Source: a virus | Reading direction: 5' to 3' (one strand) | DNA: 64,000 nucleotides | IMG/VR virus record: IMGVR_UViG_3300027708_001885 | Coordinates: 1-64,000 of that record | Shown here: piece after piece, positions 6,664 through 57,950 of the stretch | Layout of the letters: each line of letters begins with the position of its first letter | Position numbering within the stretch: position 1 is the first letter of the stretch | Program-made: the position numbers and the translations under genes | The notes under the pieces: model-generated | What the model was told of the DNA's origin: nothing | The model's input: only the letters and a program-made list of their open reading frames with translations | Databases searched by the model: none

Positions 6664-9600
6664 TTAAACCCAGGCAAAATAATTAACATTGATTGCTGCC
6701 TGATCAATACCACCACCGGTTAAGTTCATTACTTGTATTGTTGCCGAATTGGTAGCACTTGCCCAAGCTGCTGTAACTATTAATCCAAACGTCATAGCCG
6801 CCGCCGGTTGAATAATAATATGATGATTTGTAGTCAGTCCTGGTATTAGAAATGTCTGACTTGATGCAGCGTTTTTACCCACGTTTGCAAAATCAATTGA
6901 TATACTACCTTGTACAATACTTGTGACACCGATAAGGGACACTGCTTGAGTCATCAATGTAGCAGTATTAATACTAACAGTCACAGCACCAGTTGATGTT
7001 GATATAACTGTGCCTGTACCTGCTAATATGCTAGTAACACCATTTACACCTGTCGGCCCGCTTGGTCCTTGTGGACCAGAAACTGTGCTTGCAGCACCTG
7101 TAGGTCCTTGTGGTCCAACTGCACCAGTATTACCAATTACGCCTTGTGGTCCTTGTGGTCCAACTGCACCAGTATTACCAATTACGCCTTGTGGTCCTTG
7201 TGGTCCAGTATTACCTGTAGGTCCTTGTGGTCCAGTATTACCTGTAGGTCCTTGTGGTCCAGTATTACCTGTAGGTCCTTGTGGCCCAACTGCACCAGTA
7301 TTACCTGTAGGTCCTTGTGGTCCTTGTGGTCCAGTATTACCTGTAGGTCCTTGTGGCCCAACTGCACCAGTATTACCTGTAGGTCCTTGTGGTCCTTGTG
7401 GTCCAGTATTACCTGTAGGTCCTTGTGGCCCTTGTGGCCCATAGCTTCCGTCAATCCATACAACAACACCGTCTGTTGATGTACTAACGTGTGTACCGGT
7501 GCCAGCAACAATACTTGTGACACCCAAATTATCAATTCTTGTACTACCGCCTAAACTTGGGCTTGCTACACTAACTCCAATCCCGTTACCAGCAGTAAAT
7601 GTTATTTGATTAAATGCTAGTTTGTTATTGGCAATATTACCGGCCAACATATTGTTTGTAACTGTTCCGGTGTCGGTATTATAAATTCCATTAGTTACCG
7701 TGGTAGCCAATGCTACTGCACCGGTGATCTTACTACCTGCCAGTGATCCAATCCAAACAGGGTTGTTATAAGTTTGATTACTATAAACACCGTTGGTCAC
7801 TGACCCAGCATTACCACTAACATTGCCTGTTACATTGCCAGTGACTGCACCCGTTAGTGGTCCATAAAATCTAGAACTGGTCACTGTGTTTGCAACATTT
7901 AACCCTGTGCTATCAATAGTAGCACGTATTGAACCGGCATCAGTTTGATCTCCAGTAAAGAATACAATTTCATCTTTAGTAGTACCGACAGCTAAATTAC
8001 CGCTGTTAACATATAGATATCCGTCGCTGGCACCGTTTATGTTCCAATTTGTAGGGTCATAGTAGTGACTACTATTGATACCCATATCAATGTAGTAAGT
8101 AGTGTCTGTGCCAATTTCATTTGTGGCTACAAAATCTGTACTTGCAAATGTGCTGGAACTATGATTTTGGAATATTATTTGACTATAACTGTCAGTCTTA
8201 CTATCAATCTGTATTTCGGCGGTTGGATAATCACCAATAATATTACTATTACCAAAGTGAGCACTGTCTGCTACTACAAGACTATTAATAGTGGCCGTTG
8301 TAGTTACCTGTAGTTTTTGTGTGTTGATGCCACTACCATCAAAATCCCAATAATTATCTGTCCTATTCCATAGTATTGAAGTTCGACCTGTAGCAGTACT
8401 ACCTAATATTATACCGCCTCCATCTAATTGACTTATACTAGTAGCAGAAGATCCCAATAGTAAAGTTGTACCTTCTACCGTATTTGGAACTAAGATTGTG
8501 GCTGTCCCTACAAAATTTAATTGTCCGTTGATATTAACATCATTAAATGTTACATTACTTGTAGGAGCAATATCTTGAGGTAATGTAAGTGTAATGTGAC
8601 CACTAGTGGCTGTAGTATTTCCAACAGTATTAATATATACTTGATTGGTAGTTCCCGCAACAGATATTACTCCAGTATTATTAAGTGAGGCAGCACCTGG
8701 ACCACTTGTGCCACTTAATCCATCTGTATTAATAATAATGGATGTTACTGCACCGCTGCCTAAATTATTAATCAAACTAACATCAACTGTGCCAGTCCAG
8801 GCTGTGGTTTGACGAGTACGATCATAGAACGTTATTCCACCCGTAGCATTGCCATCAAAGTCTATACCCCGATCGTTGAATACAGTACTGGTTGTGATTA
8901 TGTTAGAGTCATTTGGGGTAGTTTGTATTATTACCTGTGTGCCAGCGTGTGCATTGGTAAAGTCTTGTGAGGCCTGGATACTAATACGACCAATACTTTG
9001 CACATATTGGTTATCTCCATACCCTTGAGTGGCCAGCCTAAACAATACATCATTTGCCTTGGTCGCAGTTGGTGCTTGAACAGTACCACGTGCAGCACGA
9101 CCTGCGATAACAGGATAAGCACCAGTACCAAACGAATCAATACTAACTCGAGTACTAACACCGTTCTGCCCAGTAATTTGTAGCATAGTACCAGTAAAGT
9201 TTCGGTCCTGTTGTAGGCCTGCGGCATTACCAATAATGCTCAATGCTGATTCTGATACAGAAATGCTCTGCTTTGGATATATACTAACCAATCCAGATCT
9301 ATCAATTTCAAATACCTTATTGCCACTGCTTCCTGTCATCTTCACAGGACGGTTAAAGTTAACAAAACCTGTGGCAGTTGTTGTTCCTATAATAATCTCA
9401 CGAGCAGGATTGGCAATTTTAATCTGATTATCAACAAAGGTAAATTCACCAACTGTTAATCCAGCAGCACCTAATATAGTGAACTGTCCATTACGGGCAG
9501 TAATGGCAGTGTCAGCATTGGTAATTTCGTCTTGGAGATAGATAGTACCACCACCCATCCATAGGTGTTTGAATCTGTTGATAGGTGATCCTAAACTGCT

Positions 9601-43845: not shown

Positions 43846-44607
43846 TTAATACCTTAAAAATTGACCACCAGCTCCGTCCCACCCGTATACTACCCAATCT
43901 GTTTCAATAATATTTGGCTCATATACTCTTGTAAAAAAGTATAACAAGGTTTCTACATCATATATCGAACCGTTAGGGTGATTGGTAAATGTTGCAATGA
44001 CTCTGTAAATATCTAATATTCTGTCCATATTCATTCTGCCCCATCCGTATAGGACAGACGAGTACTGATAGAGTTTATTATCATTTTGAATAGCACGACG
44101 ATCTACTATTTGATAATTCCAGCTGTCATTCCATTCATACTTGAAAGGATGTTTAAAGAAGATTTTATCGAGATTTTCTTCATTGAGCAAACTGGTATCA
44201 AAATTACTATCAACAAAATACCGTCCACTCATTTTAAAGTAGTAGTCGTATCCGTCTAAAACACTTCTGTACTTTTCGATGAACTTGACCAACATTAACG
44301 ACTCGCCGAAACTCTTGTTAGGGTGTGTTCTGACTAATTCAAATATATCAGGAAATTCTTCCTTAACTGACACAAACACAAGATTTTTCTGATAACCTAG
44401 TGTAGACTTATATTGCTCGTAATCTTCTGATGCATCAATTAGAAAAATAGTAGTATCAGCTCCAGCCATCATATCAAGTGATGCTATAGTAAAGATGGTG
44501 TGTTTAAATCTATCAGCACTTGAAAAGGTTGTTCGTACCTTACTGTATGTAAGTGGGTTAGTATTATCGACATCAATAACACTGGTAATTAAAAATGCTT
44601 TTTTCAT
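43846..44607 (-). CDS. Probable glycosyltransferase-like protein
   Basis: KS.GE, FKMSGRY motifs; in sugar-modification cluster. Confidence 0.55.
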   Translation of the reverse strand: MKKAFLITSVIDVDNTNPLTYSKVRTTFSSADRFKHTIFTIASLDMMAGADTTIFLIDASEDYEQYKSTLGYQKNLVFVSVKEEFPDIFELVRTHPNKSFGESLMLVKFIEKYRSVLDGYDYYFKMSGRYFVDSNFDTSLLNEENLDKIFFKHPFKYEWNDSWNYQIVDRRAIQNDNKLYQYSSVLYGWGRMNMDRILDIYRVIATFTNHPNGSIYDVETLLYFFTRVYEPNIIETDWVVYGWDGAGGQFLRY

Positions 44608-45626
44608 TCTCTGTAAAAATCCTTAGCCTGTAGTTTCTTAAAATATTCATCAAATTTTTTGTGTACTACAGATTCCTCGCAGTTGACCCATGCCCAATCT
44701 CTACAGGCTTTGGGATCTATGAGATGTATGTTTTTTAATGCTGTAACAAATTCTTTAAACTCTCTGCAACGATATCCCGTAACACCGTGTACTACTGTTT
44801 CAGTAAAACCACCCCAGTCTGTTGTAATTGCAGGTGTACCGCAGAAATACCCCTCAACCACCATATTGCCAAACGGCTCGACATAGTAAGTGGGCCCAAT
44901 AATGGCCTGTGCATCACGCATCAATTCTTTTCTTTGATCGGAGCCAACTAGTCCTACACAGGTTACGTGCTCGGGTATTTCTTTATATCCCATATCCGTG
45001 AGACTACCCGGACCAGCAATGATTAGCTTATGTCCAGATTTCTCTGTAGCCTGTATCGCAATGTGTATGCCTTTACTTTCAATTACACGGCCGAAGTACA
45101 GTATATAGTCTTTCTTTTTTGCAGAATATTCAAACTCGTCGGCACTAAATCCATTTGGAATAACTGCATCATACCAGCTGGGAGTCATCAACATACCTCG
45201 TTCACCATACATCATATGTTGCTGTGCATAGCTGACAAATACTCGATAAGGCGCAAATACTGCTTTAGTTTCGTAACCGATGCTTGGTTCGACAATCAAT
45301 AGGTCCTTATTTGCTTCGGCTGCTTCTCGATTCTCCCAACCATGGAAACACATGATTAAATCGCCGGTACGTTTACGCAGGGCAATTTCTTTGCCTGCAC
45401 GTTTATTGTATTCTTTTATGTTAGTTTGATTATCATTATATATGTTAGGCAAACACACTATGGTTTTACACGGCACCTGGCACCCTACAATACCGTAATG
45501 AACACAATCCCATCCTAGCTTCTGCATGTTCTCGACAAATTTTATCACAGCTATTGAGAACGCATCTATCCTTCTATCAATATGAACAGGACTGTATGGA
45601 CTACTTAAAATGTGCAATGTTGACAT
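44604..45626 (-). CDS. GT4 family glycosyltransferase
   Basis: GR...KG, EPFG..VVE...GTP. Confidence 0.88.
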   Translation of the reverse strand: MSTLHILSSPYSPVHIDRRIDAFSIAVIKFVENMQKLGWDCVHYGIVGCQVPCKTIVCLPNIYNDNQTNIKEYNKRAGKEIALRKRTGDLIMCFHGWENREAAEANKDLLIVEPSIGYETKAVFAPYRVFVSYAQQHMMYGERGMLMTPSWYDAVIPNGFSADEFEYSAKKKDYILYFGRVIESKGIHIAIQATEKSGHKLIIAGPGSLTDMGYKEIPEHVTCVGLVGSDQRKELMRDAQAIIGPTYYVEPFGNMVVEGYFCGTPAITTDWGGFTETVVHGVTGYRCREFKEFVTALKNIHLIDPKACRDWAWVNCEESVVHKKFDEYFKKLQAKDFYRE

Positions 45627-45727: not shown

Positions 45728-46207
45728 TTAAGTAGCAAACCAAACTTCATCAAACCCTTCTTCCAAAGAAGGTGGGTCTGCTGTTAGATCAAAAGCCATT
45801 TGTTCTACTACACTTATTGGAATCTCTTTACCAGGTCGACTTGCTAAACGCTTGGCTAATTCTTCTTTTTCAGGAGTCTTAAACACTACTGCAATCTTGT
45901 AGTAGTCTGGCAACATGTTGAACTTACGAGCACGACTTGCAATAGTTGTACTGGTCTGATCCCAAATGATATCACGCTTCATTTCACGGGCCGCAATTAC
46001 TTCCTTGGCCATGAGATCAACAGCAGTGGGCATGAAATCTGTAAACACTTCGGAATAGGTACGACCCACTTCCTTGGCATAGATTTCAACCCACTTGTCT
46101 GTACTGATGCGAGCACAGGTTATTGCCCATTCCTGATCATCTACCCATGTAGACTTACCTGAACCAGGCACTCCGACTAGTACATATAATTTACATCGTT
46201 GGTCCAT
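45728..46207 (-). CDS. P-loop kinase (polynucleotide kinase-like)
   Basis: GVPGSGKST, ISTD, DQT. Confidence 0.8.
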   Translation of the reverse strand: MDQRCKLYVLVGVPGSGKSTWVDDQEWAITCARISTDKWVEIYAKEVGRTYSEVFTDFMPTAVDLMAKEVIAAREMKRDIIWDQTSTTIASRARKFNMLPDYYKIAVVFKTPEKEELAKRLASRPGKEIPISVVEQMAFDLTADPPSLEEGFDEVWFAT

Positions 46208-46796
46208 TGCCGTTCCTAAATGTAATTGATCCACCTTCTTCAACAATGCGCTTTTTTACATCCTCGAACAAGATGGGCGCAAAGTCCGGAGTCTGCTCAA
46301 CGCAAACACAATGATAACGAACATCGTTCTCGTCGCTGTACAAGACTTCTCCTGTACGGGCATCGACACCCCTGGCCTTCTTGACACGATTTGCATGTAA
46401 ATGACCGTGAACGTTAACACCGAATCGACCTAAGCTGTCACTATGTAAAGGAATATGACTAAAGATCATACCCTCTACAACGTGATAGGCTCGCAATTCA
46501 CGGAAGTAAGCTCTGTATTCGTCATCTCGGAAGATGTCGTGGTTACCGCGGATTAAGACCTTGTCGCCGTTCAAGCGAGCTAATGTCTTTAATGCCTTAC
46601 GGTTAATAACCACATCGCCCAAATGATATATTTTATCTGTGGGCTTAACACGTTCGTTCCAAGCCTTGACCATGGCTTCGTCCATTTCTTCAGGACTGTC
46701 CCAAGGACGTAACTTTGTGACACCGTCGTTACGAGTGAACTTACAGACACCCATGTGTCCGAAGTGCGTATCACTCACTAAAAATGTCGCTGTCAT
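46191..46796 (-). CDS. Calcineurin-like metallophosphoesterase
   Basis: SDTHFGH, HLGD, GNHD, HGHLH. Confidence 0.9.
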   Translation of the reverse strand: MTATFLVSDTHFGHMGVCKFTRNDGVTKLRPWDSPEEMDEAMVKAWNERVKPTDKIYHLGDVVINRKALKTLARLNGDKVLIRGNHDIFRDDEYRAYFRELRAYHVVEGMIFSHIPLHSDSLGRFGVNVHGHLHANRVKKARGVDARTGEVLYSDENDVRYHCVCVEQTPDFAPILFEDVKKRIVEEGGSITFRNGNGPTM

Positions 46797-47034
46797 ATTC
46801 TATCCTTTCTTTCTTTACTCGCCCTATTCGGCTAGCCTTGTTCCAATCATAGTCGACTCCATCAGGACACTTTCCGTCCTTAACAGCGTCAACGCCAAAT
46901 ATGCCACACACTTCAAAGTCCGGACCTTTGATAGTCACAAACATTCCAACGGTCTTGGCAAATGCCATGGCACCATCTAGTGTGTCGCTTCCGAATAGTG
47001 GCAAGCCACTTTTGCTTATTATATTATATATCAT
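46771..47034 (-). CDS. Hypothetical protein
   Basis: ORF in operon. Confidence 0.55.
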   Translation of the reverse strand: MIYNIISKSGLPLFGSDTLDGAMAFAKTVGMFVTIKGPDFEVCGIFGVDAVKDGKCPDGVDYDWNKASRIGRVKKERIEYDSDIFSE

Positions 47035-47491
47035 TTTTAAAAGTTCGCCAATCATCAATGTTTGGCTTTTCGTTTTCATCATATGTCCAACCTAAAGCCT
47101 TCATCATGCGATGCTTGACTAGTAGGTTAGGGCTGCGGAATCTGCCAGTATCTTCAAAACCCATCATGACTCCGACTTCGCACACTGCACCACTACGGCA
47201 GATACCCATTGTACAATGCACGACTACATTCATTCTGTTAGATAATGCATGTTGCAGTAATCGAACAAGCTCGTCGGCTTGTTCTTGACTACATCTCATT
47301 GCTTCGTCTAAAGCAAAATCATTCTTTTCGATATCAAGGAACTCAAAATTATGACGCTCTTTGAATACGTGTTTTGCTTCTGGCTTCCAACCTGCAGGAT
47401 CAGTAATGCTGATCAGCATACTATTCTCTCCGGCTTCATGATGAAACCTAGTAGGTATATCATCAGCAGCTACGTTTTCAATCCAGGGCAT
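47024..47491 (-). CDS. Cys-based (CX5R) phosphatase
   Basis: VHCTMGICRSG, EFLD, PN. Confidence 0.85.
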   Translation of the reverse strand: MPWIENVAADDIPTRFHHEAGENSMLISITDPAGWKPEAKHVFKERHNFEFLDIEKNDFALDEAMRCSQEQADELVRLLQHALSNRMNVVVHCTMGICRSGAVCEVGVMMGFEDTGRFRSPNLLVKHRMMKALGWTYDENEKPNIDDWRTFKNDI

Positions 47492-47561
47492 TTTATTCTC
47501 CTTATTATGTATATATTATAGCAGTATTTTACCAATCTGTCAAGTAAGTAAATAGTATTAT

Positions 47562-48026: not shown

Positions 48027-48100
48027 TGGAGCGGGTAGCGAGAATCGAACTCGCAAATTAACTTTGGCAAAGTTATAGGTTACCATTACATCATACCCGC
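48027..48100 (-). tRNA. tRNA-Gly(GCC)
   Basis: Cloverleaf, U73-CCA. Confidence 0.9.
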
Positions 48101-48125
48101 GATGTTTTTATTTACCTACTAAAAT

Positions 48126-48246
48126 AACAGGTTCTCATTTTTGTGCTACCAATACACCAACACAGTTGACCAAACTGTGTCCAGGATTCGAACCTGGTCC
48201 GTCTTTTTTGCAGAAAGTTTAATAAGATTGCTGAAAAGAACCTAAA
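48126..48246 (-). ncRNA. YrlA/Y-RNA-like RNA with permuted tRNA domain (copy A)
   Basis: UAGGUUCU..UUCAGCAA 5-prime / AGAACCUG 3-prime closing stem; T arm, loop-closed acceptor stem, D arm in that order. Confidence 0.7.
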
Positions 48247-48257
48247 TGGTCAAATAA

Positions 48258-48378
48258 AACAGGCTACTTTTTTTGATGGCGATGAAGCCATTGCTCTACC
48301 ATTGAGCGAATTTGGGAAACCCCAAATGTTGGAATCGAACCAACGTGTCATAAATGACTTTGCTGAACGTAGCCTAAA
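48258..48378 (-). ncRNA. YrlA/Y-RNA-like RNA with permuted tRNA domain (copy B)
   Basis: Same terminal stem and UUCAGCAA; GTTGG-TTCGATT-CCAAC, closed acceptor, GCTC-AATGGTA-GAGC. Confidence 0.7.
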
Positions 48379-48380
48379 AC

Positions 48381-48456
48381 TGGTTGCAGAGCTTGGATTC
48401 GAACCAAGGATGGCAAAGGCTTATGAGACCTCGCTGGTGACCAGACCCTCTCTGCG
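48381..48456 (-). tRNA. tRNA-Met(CAU), initiator-like
   Basis: CAT anticodon, C1:A72 mismatch, CCA. Confidence 0.8.
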
Positions 48457-50041: not shown

Positions 50042-50329
50042 TGGTGCTCCGAGCCGGACTCGAACCGGCACACCTTGCGGCGAGAGATTTTCTTACCACT
50101 ATAGTTTTCACTACCCTTGCGGTTTGATGGTCTGGACTATACCTTCATCATAGTATTACTACTTTAGATGCCCGCCGTCTAGTCTCTACACGTTCCCTTT
50201 CGGGCTTCGCTCGGTATTAGCATTTTACAGCCTTCACCGAATTTGACGGGTTCTACTCCTAGCATTTCCACTAGGGCACTCAAATTTTACTCTCAAGTCT
50301 CTTGTGTCTACCTATTTCACCATCGGAGC
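50042..50329 (-). tRNA. tRNA-Leu(UAA), intron-containing
   Basis: Exons 50295-50329 and 50042-50091 join to give CT-T^AA-AA loop, long variable arm, CCA. Confidence 0.9.
50092..50294 (-). mobile_element. Group I self-splicing intron in tRNA-Leu(UAA), no ORF
   Basis: 5-prime exon ends in U, intron ends in G; AAATTCGGTGAA, AATACCGAGC, GTAGAGACTAGACGG, AAGGTATAGTCC core elements. Confidence 0.9.
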
Positions 50330-57489: not shown

Positions 57490-57564
57490 TGGCAGGGGCT
57501 GAAGGTAACGCTCCTTCTCACCTAGTTTCAAAGACTAGTATCTGCTCTTATCGATTTAACCCCT
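57490..57564 (-). tRNA. tRNA-Gln(UUG), atypical D/T loops
   Basis: CTAGT-CTTTGAA-ACTAG, GCCA end. Confidence 0.75.
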
Positions 57565-57570
57565 AAATAT

Positions 57571-57632
57571 AACAGGATGCTTATTTTTCAATTAACAGTT
57601 GAATTGGATAAGTTTGCTGAACGCATCCTAAA
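57571..57632 (-). ncRNA. Minimal Y-RNA-like RNA (copy C)
   Basis: TAGGATGC-GTTCAGCAA..GCATCCTG. Confidence 0.62.
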
Positions 57633-57884: not shown

Positions 57885-57950
57885 AACAGGATCAACTTTT
57901 TAGTTTCTGGATAAAAGAAAGTTTGTTAGTTTTGCTGAACTGATCCTAAA
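57885..57950 (-). ncRNA. Minimal Y-RNA-like RNA (copy D)
   Basis: TAGGATCA-GTTCAGCAA..TGATCCTG. Confidence 0.62.

What the first reader, a model, noticed from the sequence alone, without database searches (positions are those of the whole stretch)
48126..48378. Tandem circularly permuted tRNA mimics (YrlA-like Y RNAs)
Seen: two adjacent RNAs share a covarying terminal stem and invariant UUCAGCAA. Both contain T arm, loop-closed acceptor stem and D arm in permuted order. Copy A also has a CUGCAAA loop (Cys anticodon-like) and copy B a CAU-containing loop. Established: bacterial YrlA Y RNAs have this T-acceptor-D topology and bind Ro60/Rsr. No Ro60 gene is in this window, so the assignment is inferred from topology.
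Basis: partly seen in the sequence, partly recalled or inferred. Interest (0 to 1): 0.72.

Follow-up and report, generated by a model that had tools for sequence, protein, structure and literature searches.

The report
Permuted tRNA mimics on phage handle
Two neighbouring small RNA genes in a giant freshwater phage's tRNA cluster are whole tRNA bodies with their parts in rotated order, mounted on a conserved "handle" that in other phages sits beside a Ro60-shaped protein gene, so they are probably that protein's partner RNAs, a Y-RNA-like system I found in neither Rfam nor the papers searched.

Summary
On the minus strand, copy B (48261-48375) and copy A (48129-48243) share a covarying 7-bp closing stem, an invariant UUCAGCAA and a CCUGUU end. 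Both hold a T arm, a capped 7-bp acceptor stem and a D arm. Rotated back in silico, A reads as tRNA-Cys(GCA).

They are not YrlA members. The Rfam score is 26.5 bits against a cut-off of 69, there is no GNCGAA motif, and no TROVE gene lies in the contig.

They belong to a large phage family defined by the handle. The contig has two more copies, which are short (57888-57947 and 57574-57629). Fifty-eight IMG/VR contigs match a strict pattern.

The handle tracks a DUF2828/DUF7788 protein whose model matches Ro60 structures best:
- 9 of 10 large handle-bearing contigs encode it.
- 71 of 80 loci found through the protein hold handles (184 on the gene's strand, 1 opposite).
- Handles lie next to the gene in four cultured-phage lineages and in the adjoining tRNA cluster in a fifth.
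- T4 and T5 have neither.

RNA end-healing genes lie downstream in this window; RNA ligases are added in relatives. My own 102-kb fragment lacks the protein gene.

The short copies also resemble Dictyostelium Class I RNAs.

This scan has already reported the family on other DNA (95 notes, at least 50 genomes).

The parts
48261..48375 (-). Copy B. A handle RNA carrying a permuted tRNA body, in this order: V-arm-like hairpin, T arm, capped 7-bp acceptor, D arm, anticodon-arm-like hairpin with the 6-nt loop UUCAUC. It starts 5 nt after the CCA of tRNA-Met.
   Evidence: z = -5.3; rotated form is called tRNA-like by ARAGORN; acceptor and 3' hairpin covary in 4 relatives.
48129..48243 (-). Copy A ('type A'). 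A handle RNA carrying a complete permuted cloverleaf, in this order: anticodon-like arm CUGCAAA, T arm, 7-bp acceptor capped by the invariant UUGGUC, D arm.
   Evidence: 25 relatives, covariation. In one search the rotated form is called tRNA-Cys(GCA), 74 nt; the unrotated form is not called.
57888..57947 (-). Copy C. A short handle RNA (60 nt) with the same frame and an inner hairpin UUUCU-UUUAUCC-AGAAA. It lies directly after tRNA-Pro.
   Evidence: model R1, 74.3 bits; Rfam Dicty_Class_I_RNA, 15.6 bits.
57574..57629 (-). Copy D. A short handle RNA (56 nt) with an anticodon-stem-loop-like hairpin UUCAA-CUGUUAA-UUGAA. It lies directly after tRNA-Ile.
   Evidence: 69.2 bits; Rfam Dicty_Class_I_RNA 27.0 bits, full length, E = 0.001.
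48381..48456 (-). tRNA-Met(CAU) with a C1/A72 mismatch (initiator-like) and an encoded CCA. It lies immediately upstream of B and is probably co-transcribed with it.
   Evidence: An exact metatranscriptome contig at 48329-48421 bridges the tRNA 3' end and the 5' part of B (weak).
48027..48100 (-). tRNA-Gly(GCC), directly downstream of A.
47024..47491 (-). Cysteine (DSP/PTP-type) phosphatase gene. It is the first gene of the conserved downstream block and has a perfect sigma-70 promoter at 47543-47515.
   Evidence: PF22785, PF00782; downstream on the same strand in 22 of 36 type-A loci.
46191..46796 (-). Metallophosphoesterase gene (calcineurin-like, PHROG 547).
45728..46246 (-). P-loop kinase gene (AAA_33, polynucleotide-kinase-like).
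   Evidence: (PHROG 505, polynucleotide kinase).

Best explanation
Copies B and A are stable non-coding RNAs transcribed with the phage's tRNA array and cut out of it.

Each RNA has two modules.
1. A conserved handle: a 7-bp closing stem of free, covarying sequence, then one nucleotide, then single-stranded UUCAGCAA on the 5' side, and CCUG(U) at the 3' end.
2. A cargo: here a whole tRNA body whose ends have been moved. A is opened between the D arm and the anticodon arm. B is opened between the anticodon arm and the variable region. In both, the acceptor stem is closed by a loop.

The handle is most likely the docking site for a phage Ro60-shaped ring protein (DUF2828 + DUF7788/vWA). That would make these the Y-RNA equivalents of a second, divergent Ro-type particle.

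The tRNA-shaped cargo would then present a tRNA look-alike to tRNA-recognising factors, as decoy, bait or adaptor. This would act within the phage's answer to host attacks on tRNA, together with the RNA end-healing enzymes encoded just downstream and the ligases added in relatives.

Shown here: the structure, the family, covariation, and the genomic linkage of the handle to the protein and to repair genes.

Inferred: binding, processing and the biological role.
For: Structure and family:
- Searches support the fold and the covariation.
- There are four copies in this contig, all on the tRNA strand, three of them starting 5 nt after a tRNA's CCA.

The candidate partner protein:
- A protein family recurring next to handles (15 of 59 loci) is DUF2828 + DUF7788, PHROG 850 'RNA-binding protein'.
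- It has a DxSGS MIDAS motif.
- Its AlphaFold model (pLDDT 73) has its 11 listed matches at E below 1e-4 all in Ro60 structures: D. radiodurans Rsr, phage phiLo Ro60, Xenopus and human Ro60, with E from 2e-7.

Linkage of handle and protein:
- 9 of 10 large handle-bearing contigs encode the protein.
- Handles lie directly upstream of the gene on its strand in contigs G002, G003, G004 and G005.
- Among 80 loci fetched through the protein, 71 hold strict handles: 184 on the gene's strand, 1 on the opposite strand, 3 in reversed or complemented controls.

Cultured phages:
- Two or three tandem handles lie immediately beside the gene in Synechococcus phage BUCT-ZZ01, Listeria phage LP-048, Staphylococcus phage S-CoN_Ph6 and mycobacteriophage MsGreen.
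- Four lie in the tRNA cluster that starts just downstream of the gene in E. coli Felixounavirus CL1.
- Two lie about 10 kb away in Aeromonas phage PX29.
- T4 and T5 have neither the protein nor the handle.
- The handle follows the protein, not the Rnl1 ligase: T4 has Rnl1 but no handle, and CL1 has handles but no Rnl1.

Repair context:
- Type A is followed on the same strand by a DSP phosphatase, a metallophosphoesterase, a P-loop kinase, an HD protein and an Rnl1 ligase.
- Listeria phage LP-048 has the protein next to RtcB and RNA-ligase genes.
- This parallels the bacterial rsr-yrlBA-rtcBA operon (PMC7790460, PMC4201824).
Against: - The partner gene is absent from this 102-kb contig.
- At the two places where relatives G006 and G007 carry it, this phage has other genes. 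It may lie in the unassembled ~78% of the genome or be missing.
- No binding, expression-level or end-mapping data exist. RNA-library contigs cover only 48329-48421 at low depth and could come from DNA.
- The Foldseek TM-scores are modest (0.39-0.47), and Pfam TROVE does not match the protein.
- The 80 protein-anchored loci are 69-100% identical to the query, so they are not independent lineages.
- The anticodon-like hairpin of A never varies in its stem, so covariation does not support it. In this copy its first pair is A-A.
Confidence: 0.6

Rival explanations
1. They are canonical YrlA-type Y RNAs. They would bind a TROVE-type Ro60, either phage-encoded elsewhere or the host's Rsr, through the closing stem.
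For: The Rfam YrlA model aligns full length to B with the T, acceptor and D helices in register (26.5 bits, E = 0.002). YrlA RNAs occur in phages (PMC4201824, PMC12135203).
Against: - The score is far below the gathering score of 69, A is not hit at all, and no relative shows a YrlA match at gathering level.
- The GNCGAA/CGAA motif is absent.
- No TROVE gene lies in this contig or in five large related contigs, two of them complete.
- The same handle also carries cargo without any tRNA-like module (copies C and D).
Confidence: 0.08
2. They are genuine circularly permuted tRNA genes. The handle would be cut out and the ends joined, perhaps by the neighbouring healing enzymes and a ligase. RNase P and CCA addition would then open the capped acceptor, giving decoding tRNAs.
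For: Rotated A is a complete 74-nt cloverleaf that ARAGORN calls tRNA-Cys(GCA). The acceptor stems are 7 bp, as RNase P requires (PMC4201824 for M. smegmatis YrlA). Kinase and phosphatase genes lie next door, and ligase genes in relatives.
Against: - The anticodon-like loop takes 8 forms among 25 close relatives, while the invariant U that follows the acceptor 3' strand stays fixed.
- B's loop is 6 nt and differs in every relative.
- The phage already has tRNA-Cys and two tRNA-Met genes.
- The same handle carries bare hairpins, or T+D elbows without an acceptor.
- The ends form a 7-bp stem with a 9-nt bulge on one side, not a bulge-helix-bulge.
- No CCA is encoded; the cap is an invariant UUGGUC.
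Confidence: 0.06
3. They are tRNA decoys or sponges that work without any Ro-like protein. The cargo would soak up host tRNA-cleaving or tRNA-modifying enzymes, and the handle would only stabilise the RNA or direct its excision from the tRNA transcript.
For: - The cargo is always tRNA-derived: anticodon-stem-loop-like hairpins, elbows or whole bodies.
- The loops change fast between relatives, as expected in an arms race.
- This contig has four handle RNAs and no Ro-like gene.
- The elements start right after tRNA 3' ends.
Against: It does not explain why the handle sequence is conserved across phages of cyanobacteria, Proteobacteria, Firmicutes and Actinobacteria. It also does not explain why handles sit next to the Ro-like gene on its strand and are missing from T4 and T5.
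Confidence: 0.15
4. The handles are cis-acting punctuation of the tRNA operon, such as processing sites, terminator-like stems or regulatory leaders of the Ro-like gene. The cargo would be evolutionary debris of tRNA genes.
For: The closing stem is followed by GUUUUAU. The elements lie between tRNAs, or in the leader of the Ro-like gene.
Against: - The terminator scan finds nothing on the minus strand here.
- The T, acceptor and D stems of the cargo are kept by compensatory changes, and the cap loop UUGGUC is invariant in 25 of 25. The cargo is therefore under selection.
Confidence: 0.08

Closest known systems
YrlA, the tRNA-like bacterial and mycobacteriophage Y RNA bound by Ro60/Rsr (Rfam RF02553; Chen et al. 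2014, PMC4201824)
   Same: - A closing stem joins the 5' and 3' ends, with a single-stranded motif on the 5' side.
- The module has a T arm, a loop-capped acceptor stem and a D arm in that order.
- Several copies occur per genome.
- At family level the RNAs are encoded next to a ring-shaped Ro-type protein and RNA repair genes.
   Different: - The motif is UUCAGCAA rather than GNCGAAN0-1G.
- The Rfam score is 26.5 bits against a cut-off of 69.
- The candidate protein is DUF2828/DUF7788, not Pfam TROVE.
- A and B carry an additional anticodon-like arm, giving a full cloverleaf.
- The same handle also carries cargo that is not tRNA-shaped.
Thermus phage phiLo Ro60 with Yrl1 and Yrl2 (PMC12135203; PDB 9KOP, 9L5Y)
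   Same: It is a phage-encoded Ro-type ring protein with small partner RNAs encoded in tandem beside the gene. The fold of the protein modelled here matches 9L5Y and 9KOP.
   Different: The phiLo RNAs carry the CGAA motif and no tRNA body, and its protein is a recognisable TROVE protein.
Dictyostelium Class I RNAs (Rfam RF01414; Kjellin et al. 2021, PMC7919456)
   Same: The architecture matches that of the short copies. A short closing stem begins with G, the motif (C)UUACAGCAA lies directly 3' of it, the interior is variable, the 3' end is CUG(U), and the length is about 60 nt. Copy D aligns full length at 27.0 bits, E = 0.001.
   Different: - The score is below the gathering score of 41.5.
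- One nucleotide is missing (UU-CAGCAA).
- Those RNAs come from eukaryotic nuclear genes with their own promoter element, their known binder is an RRM protein, and they carry no tRNA cargo.
Circularly permuted tRNA genes of Cyanidioschyzon merolae and some other algae and archaea (from my own knowledge of the literature, not re-read here)
   Same: The 3' half of the tRNA precedes the 5' half, with the acceptor ends joined by a short linker.
   Different: Those genes mature through a bulge-helix-bulge cut, ligation to a circle and end processing, and they keep their anticodons. Here there is no bulge-helix-bulge, the anticodon-like loops drift, and the host system is a phage.

Membership tests
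YrlA (Rfam RF02553) | The covariance-model score reaches the gathering threshold of 69 bits. | tested here: not met
   B scores 26.5 bits. A has no hit at E <= 10. No YrlA match appeared in the listed gathering-level matches of 17 related loci.
YrlA (Rfam RF02553) | A tRNA-like module with a T arm, a loop-closed acceptor stem and a D arm. | tested here: met
   Covariation of these helices in relatives is shown.
YrlA (Rfam RF02553) | The GNCGAAN0-1G motif near the 5' end, the presumed Ro60 contact (PMC4201824). | tested here: not met
   The conserved 5' motif is UUCAGCAA in all four copies and in the relatives.
YrlA (Rfam RF02553) | Encoded within about 4 kb of a TROVE Ro60 gene on the same strand. 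| tested here: not met
   No PF05731 match was found in the 102-kb contig or in five large related contigs.
YrlA (Rfam RF02553) | Bound by Ro60/Rsr in vivo. | not testable with these tools
   This needs immunoprecipitation or a gel-shift assay.
Phage CAGCAA-handle RNAs (unnamed; not in Rfam 15) | A 7-bp covarying closing stem, a short spacer, single-stranded CAGCAA, variable cargo, the 3' strand of the stem, then G. | tested here: met
   All four copies meet this. Model R1 scores A at 30.2 bits and B at 28.0 bits.
Phage CAGCAA-handle RNAs (unnamed; not in Rfam 15) | The genome encodes the DUF2828/DUF7788 Ro60-shaped protein, usually beside handles. | tested here: inconclusive
   The gene is absent from this 22%-complete contig. 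It is present in 9 of 10 large relatives and lies next to or near handles in 6 cultured phage lineages.
Dictyostelium Class I RNA (Rfam RF01414) | The covariance-model score reaches the gathering threshold of 41.5 bits. | tested here: not met
   Copy D scores 27.0 bits and copy C 15.6 bits. A and B are not hit.
Dictyostelium Class I RNA (Rfam RF01414) | A short closing stem starting with G, an adjacent ..UUACAGCAA motif and a CUG(U) 3' end. | tested here: met
   The alignment shows GGAUGC GUU-CAGCAA ... GCAUCC UG against GaUcuC CUUACAGCAA ... GagAuC UG.
Circularly permuted tRNA genes | A complete cloverleaf after rotation. | tested here: met
   ARAGORN calls rotated A tRNA-Cys(GCA). Rotated B is tRNA-like with a 6-nt loop.
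Circularly permuted tRNA genes | The anticodon is conserved among orthologues, as a decoding function requires. | tested here: not met
   There are 8 loop variants in 25 relatives of A. B's loop differs in each relative.
Circularly permuted tRNA genes | A bulge-helix-bulge at the joined termini for the splicing endonuclease. | tested here: not met
   The termini form a 7-bp stem with a single 9-nt bulge on the 5' side.
Ro60/TROVE proteins (for the candidate partner) | A ring of helical repeats plus a vWA domain with a MIDAS motif. | tested here: met
   The best Foldseek matches are all Ro60 structures over about 510-550 columns. The DxSGS motif is invariant. Pfam TROVE itself does not match.

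The most novel reading that the evidence does not exclude
The handle (short closing stem + UU(A)CAGCAA + CUG end) and the DUF2828/DUF7788 ring protein form an ancient second Ro-type ribonucleoprotein. It would be shared by phages of at least four bacterial phyla and, through the Class I RNAs, by social amoebae.

Phages would use it to display interchangeable tRNA parts, including whole permuted tRNAs whose anticodon loops evolve quickly. These would act as baits against host tRNA-targeting defences.

If true, the long-unexplained Dictyostelium Class I RNAs would gain a candidate protein partner and a candidate function.
Probability: 0.2. Interest if true: 0.88.

Novelty: new variant of a known kind. 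Interest (0 to 1): 0.72.

Why it matters
Ro60/Y-RNA particles are known from animals, some bacteria and a few phages, and their role in RNA repair is still unclear.

This would be a second, sequence-unrelated version of that system. It uses a different docking motif and a modular cargo built from tRNA parts.

It occurs in easily grown model phages: Felix-O1-like coliphages, Listeria P100-like phages, cluster L mycobacteriophages and a Synechococcus phage. Binding, processing and defence-evasion tests could therefore be run directly.

It also marks dozens of 'empty' gaps in phage tRNA arrays as RNA genes. It links them to the RNA healing and sealing enzymes that phages use against anticodon nucleases.

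Tried and rejected
Searches that found nothing:
- Pfam TROVE: none in the own contig or in five large relatives.
- Rfam at gathering level: only tRNAs and one group I intron in the window.
- Sequence search of the Ro-like profile against PDB: no Ro60 hit; only the fold search found it.
- DUF7788 and Rnl1 in the own contig: none.
- Megablast of the region against cultured phages: no relative.
- Protein atlas: only viral DUF2828 clusters, nothing on eukaryotes.
- Papers: no description of permuted tRNA-like RNAs or of DUF2828 function in phages. Burroughs & Aravind 2016 could not be read.

Checks that were inconclusive or negative:
- Synteny. Relatives G006 and G007 carry the Ro-like gene at places that are syntenic with my contig, but my contig has other genes there.
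- Expression. Metatranscriptome contigs cover 48329-48421 exactly but nothing over 48116-48317. Depth is about 3, only contigs are available, and there is no information on ends or strand. I draw no conclusion from this.
- T4 rnaC/rnaD and the T5 'stable RNAs of unknown function' do not carry the handle.
- RNAalifold on the MAFFT alignment mis-drew the anticodon-like and acceptor helices because of gap placement, so I counted pairs on a structure I specified.
- I considered integron attC-like or transposon-end DNA palindromes. I rejected this because the elements are strand-specific, lie in RNA operons and contain tRNA helices under selection.

Full report
**Setting.** The window is the first 64 kb of a 102-kb IMG/VR viral contig that CheckV rates 22% complete. 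It therefore comes from a very large phage, and exact matches occur in freshwater and lake runs. Between 45.6 and 60.2 kb lie 34 tRNA genes, all on the minus strand, plus a group I intron. The finding lies on that strand, between tRNA-Met (48381-48456) and tRNA-Gly (48027-48100).

**The observation.** Read on the minus strand, copy B (48261-48375) and copy A (48129-48243) have the same frame: UUUAGG-NNNN-N-UUCAGCAA ... NNNN-CCUGUU. The seven-base stems AGGCUAC/GUAGCCU and AGGUUCU/AGAACCU differ at three of the four free positions, each time on both strands. Both contain a canonical T arm (GGUUCGAWUCC), a 7-bp acceptor stem closed by a loop, and a D arm with the GG of the D loop.
- B has an extra hairpin before the T arm and an anticodon-arm-like hairpin (loop UUCAUC) after the D arm.
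- A has an anticodon-arm-like hairpin (loop CUGCAAA) before the T arm.
- The minimum-energy fold of B gives exactly this, with z = -5.3. A is weaker, z between -1.2 and -2.0.
- When I rotated the pieces into normal tRNA order, ARAGORN called A a 74-nt tRNA-Cys(GCA) and B a tRNA-like molecule with a variable arm and a 6-nt anticodon loop. Neither is called in its native order.

The two RNAs are therefore permuted at different points: A at 26/27 and B at 43/44.

**A family, not a pair.**
- The motif AGG-N5-UUCAGCAA occurs four times in the contig, always on the tRNA strand.
- The two further copies (57888-57947 and 57574-57629) are only 60 and 56 nt long. They have the same frame and carry a single hairpin with a 7-nt loop.
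- Three of the four copies begin 5 nt after the encoded CCA of a tRNA.
- A strict pattern that also required a T loop hit 58 IMG/VR contigs.
- In these contigs plus mine, 74 of 79 distinct handle 5' parts have the exact 7-nt complement within 300 nt. Only 1 of 79 does when the stem letters are permuted. There are 21 different stems.
- On 21 short members the stem is 100% paired, with compensatory changes at 4 of 7 pairs.
- On 25 relatives of A, 98% of cells pair and the covariation score is 0.266 against 0.095 in shuffles. The T and acceptor stems change on both sides, and there are 16 different acceptor stems.
- B's acceptor stem and 3' hairpin also covary in its few relatives.
- Cargo varies widely across the family: bare anticodon-stem-loop-like hairpins, T+D elbows without an acceptor, whole permuted cloverleaves and larger inserts.

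**Not decoding tRNAs.**
- Among the 25 relatives of A the anticodon-like loop reads CUGUAAA (14), CUGCAAA (3), CUGAAAA (3) and five other forms. The cap loop UUGGUC is invariant, and no CCA is encoded.
- B's loop differs in every relative.
- The phage already has tRNA-Cys and two tRNA-Met genes.

**Not YrlA.**
- The Rfam YrlA model aligns to B in register, but at 26.5 bits against a gathering score of 69. A is not hit.
- No YrlA match appeared in the listed gathering-level matches of 17 related loci.
- The motif that defines the Ro60 site of YrlA and other Y RNAs, GNCGAAN0-1G or CGAA (PMC4201824, PMC12135203), is absent.
- No TROVE gene is found in this contig or in five large related contigs, two of them complete.

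**The likely partner.** I clustered the ORFs around all handle loci. One recurrent family is a protein of about 475 aa with DUF2828 + DUF7788, PHROG 850 'RNA-binding protein'. It has an invariant DxSGS MIDAS motif. A profile search against PDB sequences found nothing relevant. Its AlphaFold model (pLDDT 73) has its 11 listed matches at E below 1e-4 all in Ro60 structures: Deinococcus Rsr, Thermus phage phiLo Ro60, Xenopus and human Ro60. E-values start at 2e-7, the alignments are near full length and TM-scores are 0.39-0.47. Some GenBank annotators already call its mycobacteriophage homologues 'Ro-like RNA binding protein'.

**Linkage of handle and protein.**
- Nine of ten large handle-bearing contigs encode the protein.
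- In four of them, handles lie directly upstream of the gene on its strand.
- Of 80 loci fetched through the protein, 71 hold strict handles. There are 184 on the gene's strand, 1 on the other strand and 3 in reversed or complemented controls. These loci are relatives (69-100% identity), so I also tested cultured phages.
- Two or three tandem handles lie immediately beside the gene in Synechococcus phage BUCT-ZZ01, Listeria phage LP-048, Staphylococcus phage S-CoN_Ph6 and mycobacteriophage MsGreen.
- Four lie in the tRNA cluster that begins just downstream of the gene in E. coli Felixounavirus CL1. Two lie about 10 kb away in Aeromonas phage PX29.
- T4 and T5 have neither the protein nor any match to my handle model, even though both carry classical stable RNAs in their tRNA clusters.
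- The handle follows the protein rather than the Rnl1 ligase. T4 has Rnl1 and no handle, while CL1 has handles and no Rnl1.

**RNA repair context.** In 22 of 36 type-A loci, the RNA is followed on the same strand by a cysteine phosphatase. This is usually joined by a metallophosphoesterase and a P-loop polynucleotide-kinase-like protein, and often by an HD protein and an Rnl1-type ligase. In some loci the Ro-like gene lies 1 kb downstream. In my window this block is 45728-47491. Listeria phage LP-048 places the Ro-like gene next to RtcB and RNA-ligase genes. This mirrors the bacterial rsr-yrlBA-rtcBA operon (PMC7790460) and the remark that some jumbo phages carry a TROVE-type protein as an RNA-repair platform with a tRNA-like partner (PMC7824862).

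**What weakens the case for this window.**
- The Ro-like gene is not in the 102 kb held.
- At the two positions where relatives G006 and G007 carry it, my contig has other genes.
- Expression is not shown. One exact metatranscriptome contig bridges tRNA-Met and the first 48 nt of B, at low depth.
- The helix of A's anticodon-like hairpin never varies, so covariation is silent on it.

**An unexpected resemblance.** The short copies align full length to Rfam's Dictyostelium Class I RNA model: copy D at 27.0 bits (E = 0.001) and copy C at 15.6 bits, against a gathering score of 41.5. The shared features are a closing stem starting with G, the motif (C)UUACAGCAA against UU-CAGCAA here, a variable interior and a CUG end. 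The published description agrees: a short stem, an 11-nt motif next to its 5' strand, a CUGU end and about 60 nt (PMC7919456). Many phage handles carry UUACAGCAA exactly.

**Verdict.**
- The YrlA label is not, but 'works like a Y RNA with a tRNA mimic' is the best reading.
- I found the family in neither Rfam 15 nor the papers searched.
- Earlier notes of this scan report the same family on other genomes. I re-derived the protein link, the fold and the Class I resemblance with my own calls.

Noticed in passing
window 50042-50329 (-): A tRNA-Leu(UAA) gene is split in its anticodon loop by a group I intron of about 203 nt. ARAGORN finds it in intron mode, and Rfam Intron_gpI matches 50111-50298. 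The default tRNA scan misses it.
   Followed up: partly
window 57490-57564 (-): A low-scoring tRNA-Gln(UUG)-like gene with an odd D arm and the T loop AGCGUUA. It is called only at a relaxed ARAGORN threshold and lies directly after short handle RNA D.
   Followed up: partly
window 48160-48180 and 48244-48256 (-): The acceptor cap loop UUGGUC of type A is invariant in 25 of 25 relatives. The spacer just upstream of type A carries a conserved UUGACC, and GACC is complementary to GGUC. UGGU is also complementary to a tRNA 3' ACCA end. This could be a pseudoknot or a site for capturing CCA ends. I did not test it.
   Followed up: no
window 48381-48456 (-): The tRNA-Met upstream of copy B has a C1/A72 mismatch, as in bacterial initiator tRNAs, and an encoded CCA.
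   Followed up: no
window 47515-47543 (-): A perfect sigma-70-type promoter (TTGACA, 17 nt, TG-TATAAT) lies directly in front of the cysteine phosphatase gene of the repair block.
   Followed up: no
own contig 100281-102181 (L154:10281-12181, -) and window 44604-45626 (-): Glycosyltransferase and RimK-type ATP-grasp genes sit where related phages carry the Ro60-like gene. An Hsp70 (DnaK) gene is also encoded at own contig 94792-96672.
   Followed up: partly
L151 (phage T5, 25-45 kb) and L150 (phage T4, 60-80 kb): The classical 'stable RNAs of unknown function' in the T5 and T4 tRNA clusters (rnaC, rnaD, RNAI, RNAIII, RNA1, RNA2 and others) do not match the handle model. They are a different and still unexplained set.
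   Followed up: partly
L023:6849-7055 and L057:6343-6530, 7546-7770: Some handle RNAs carry much larger inserts (178-215 nt), including a long extension in place of the acceptor cap.
   Followed up: no
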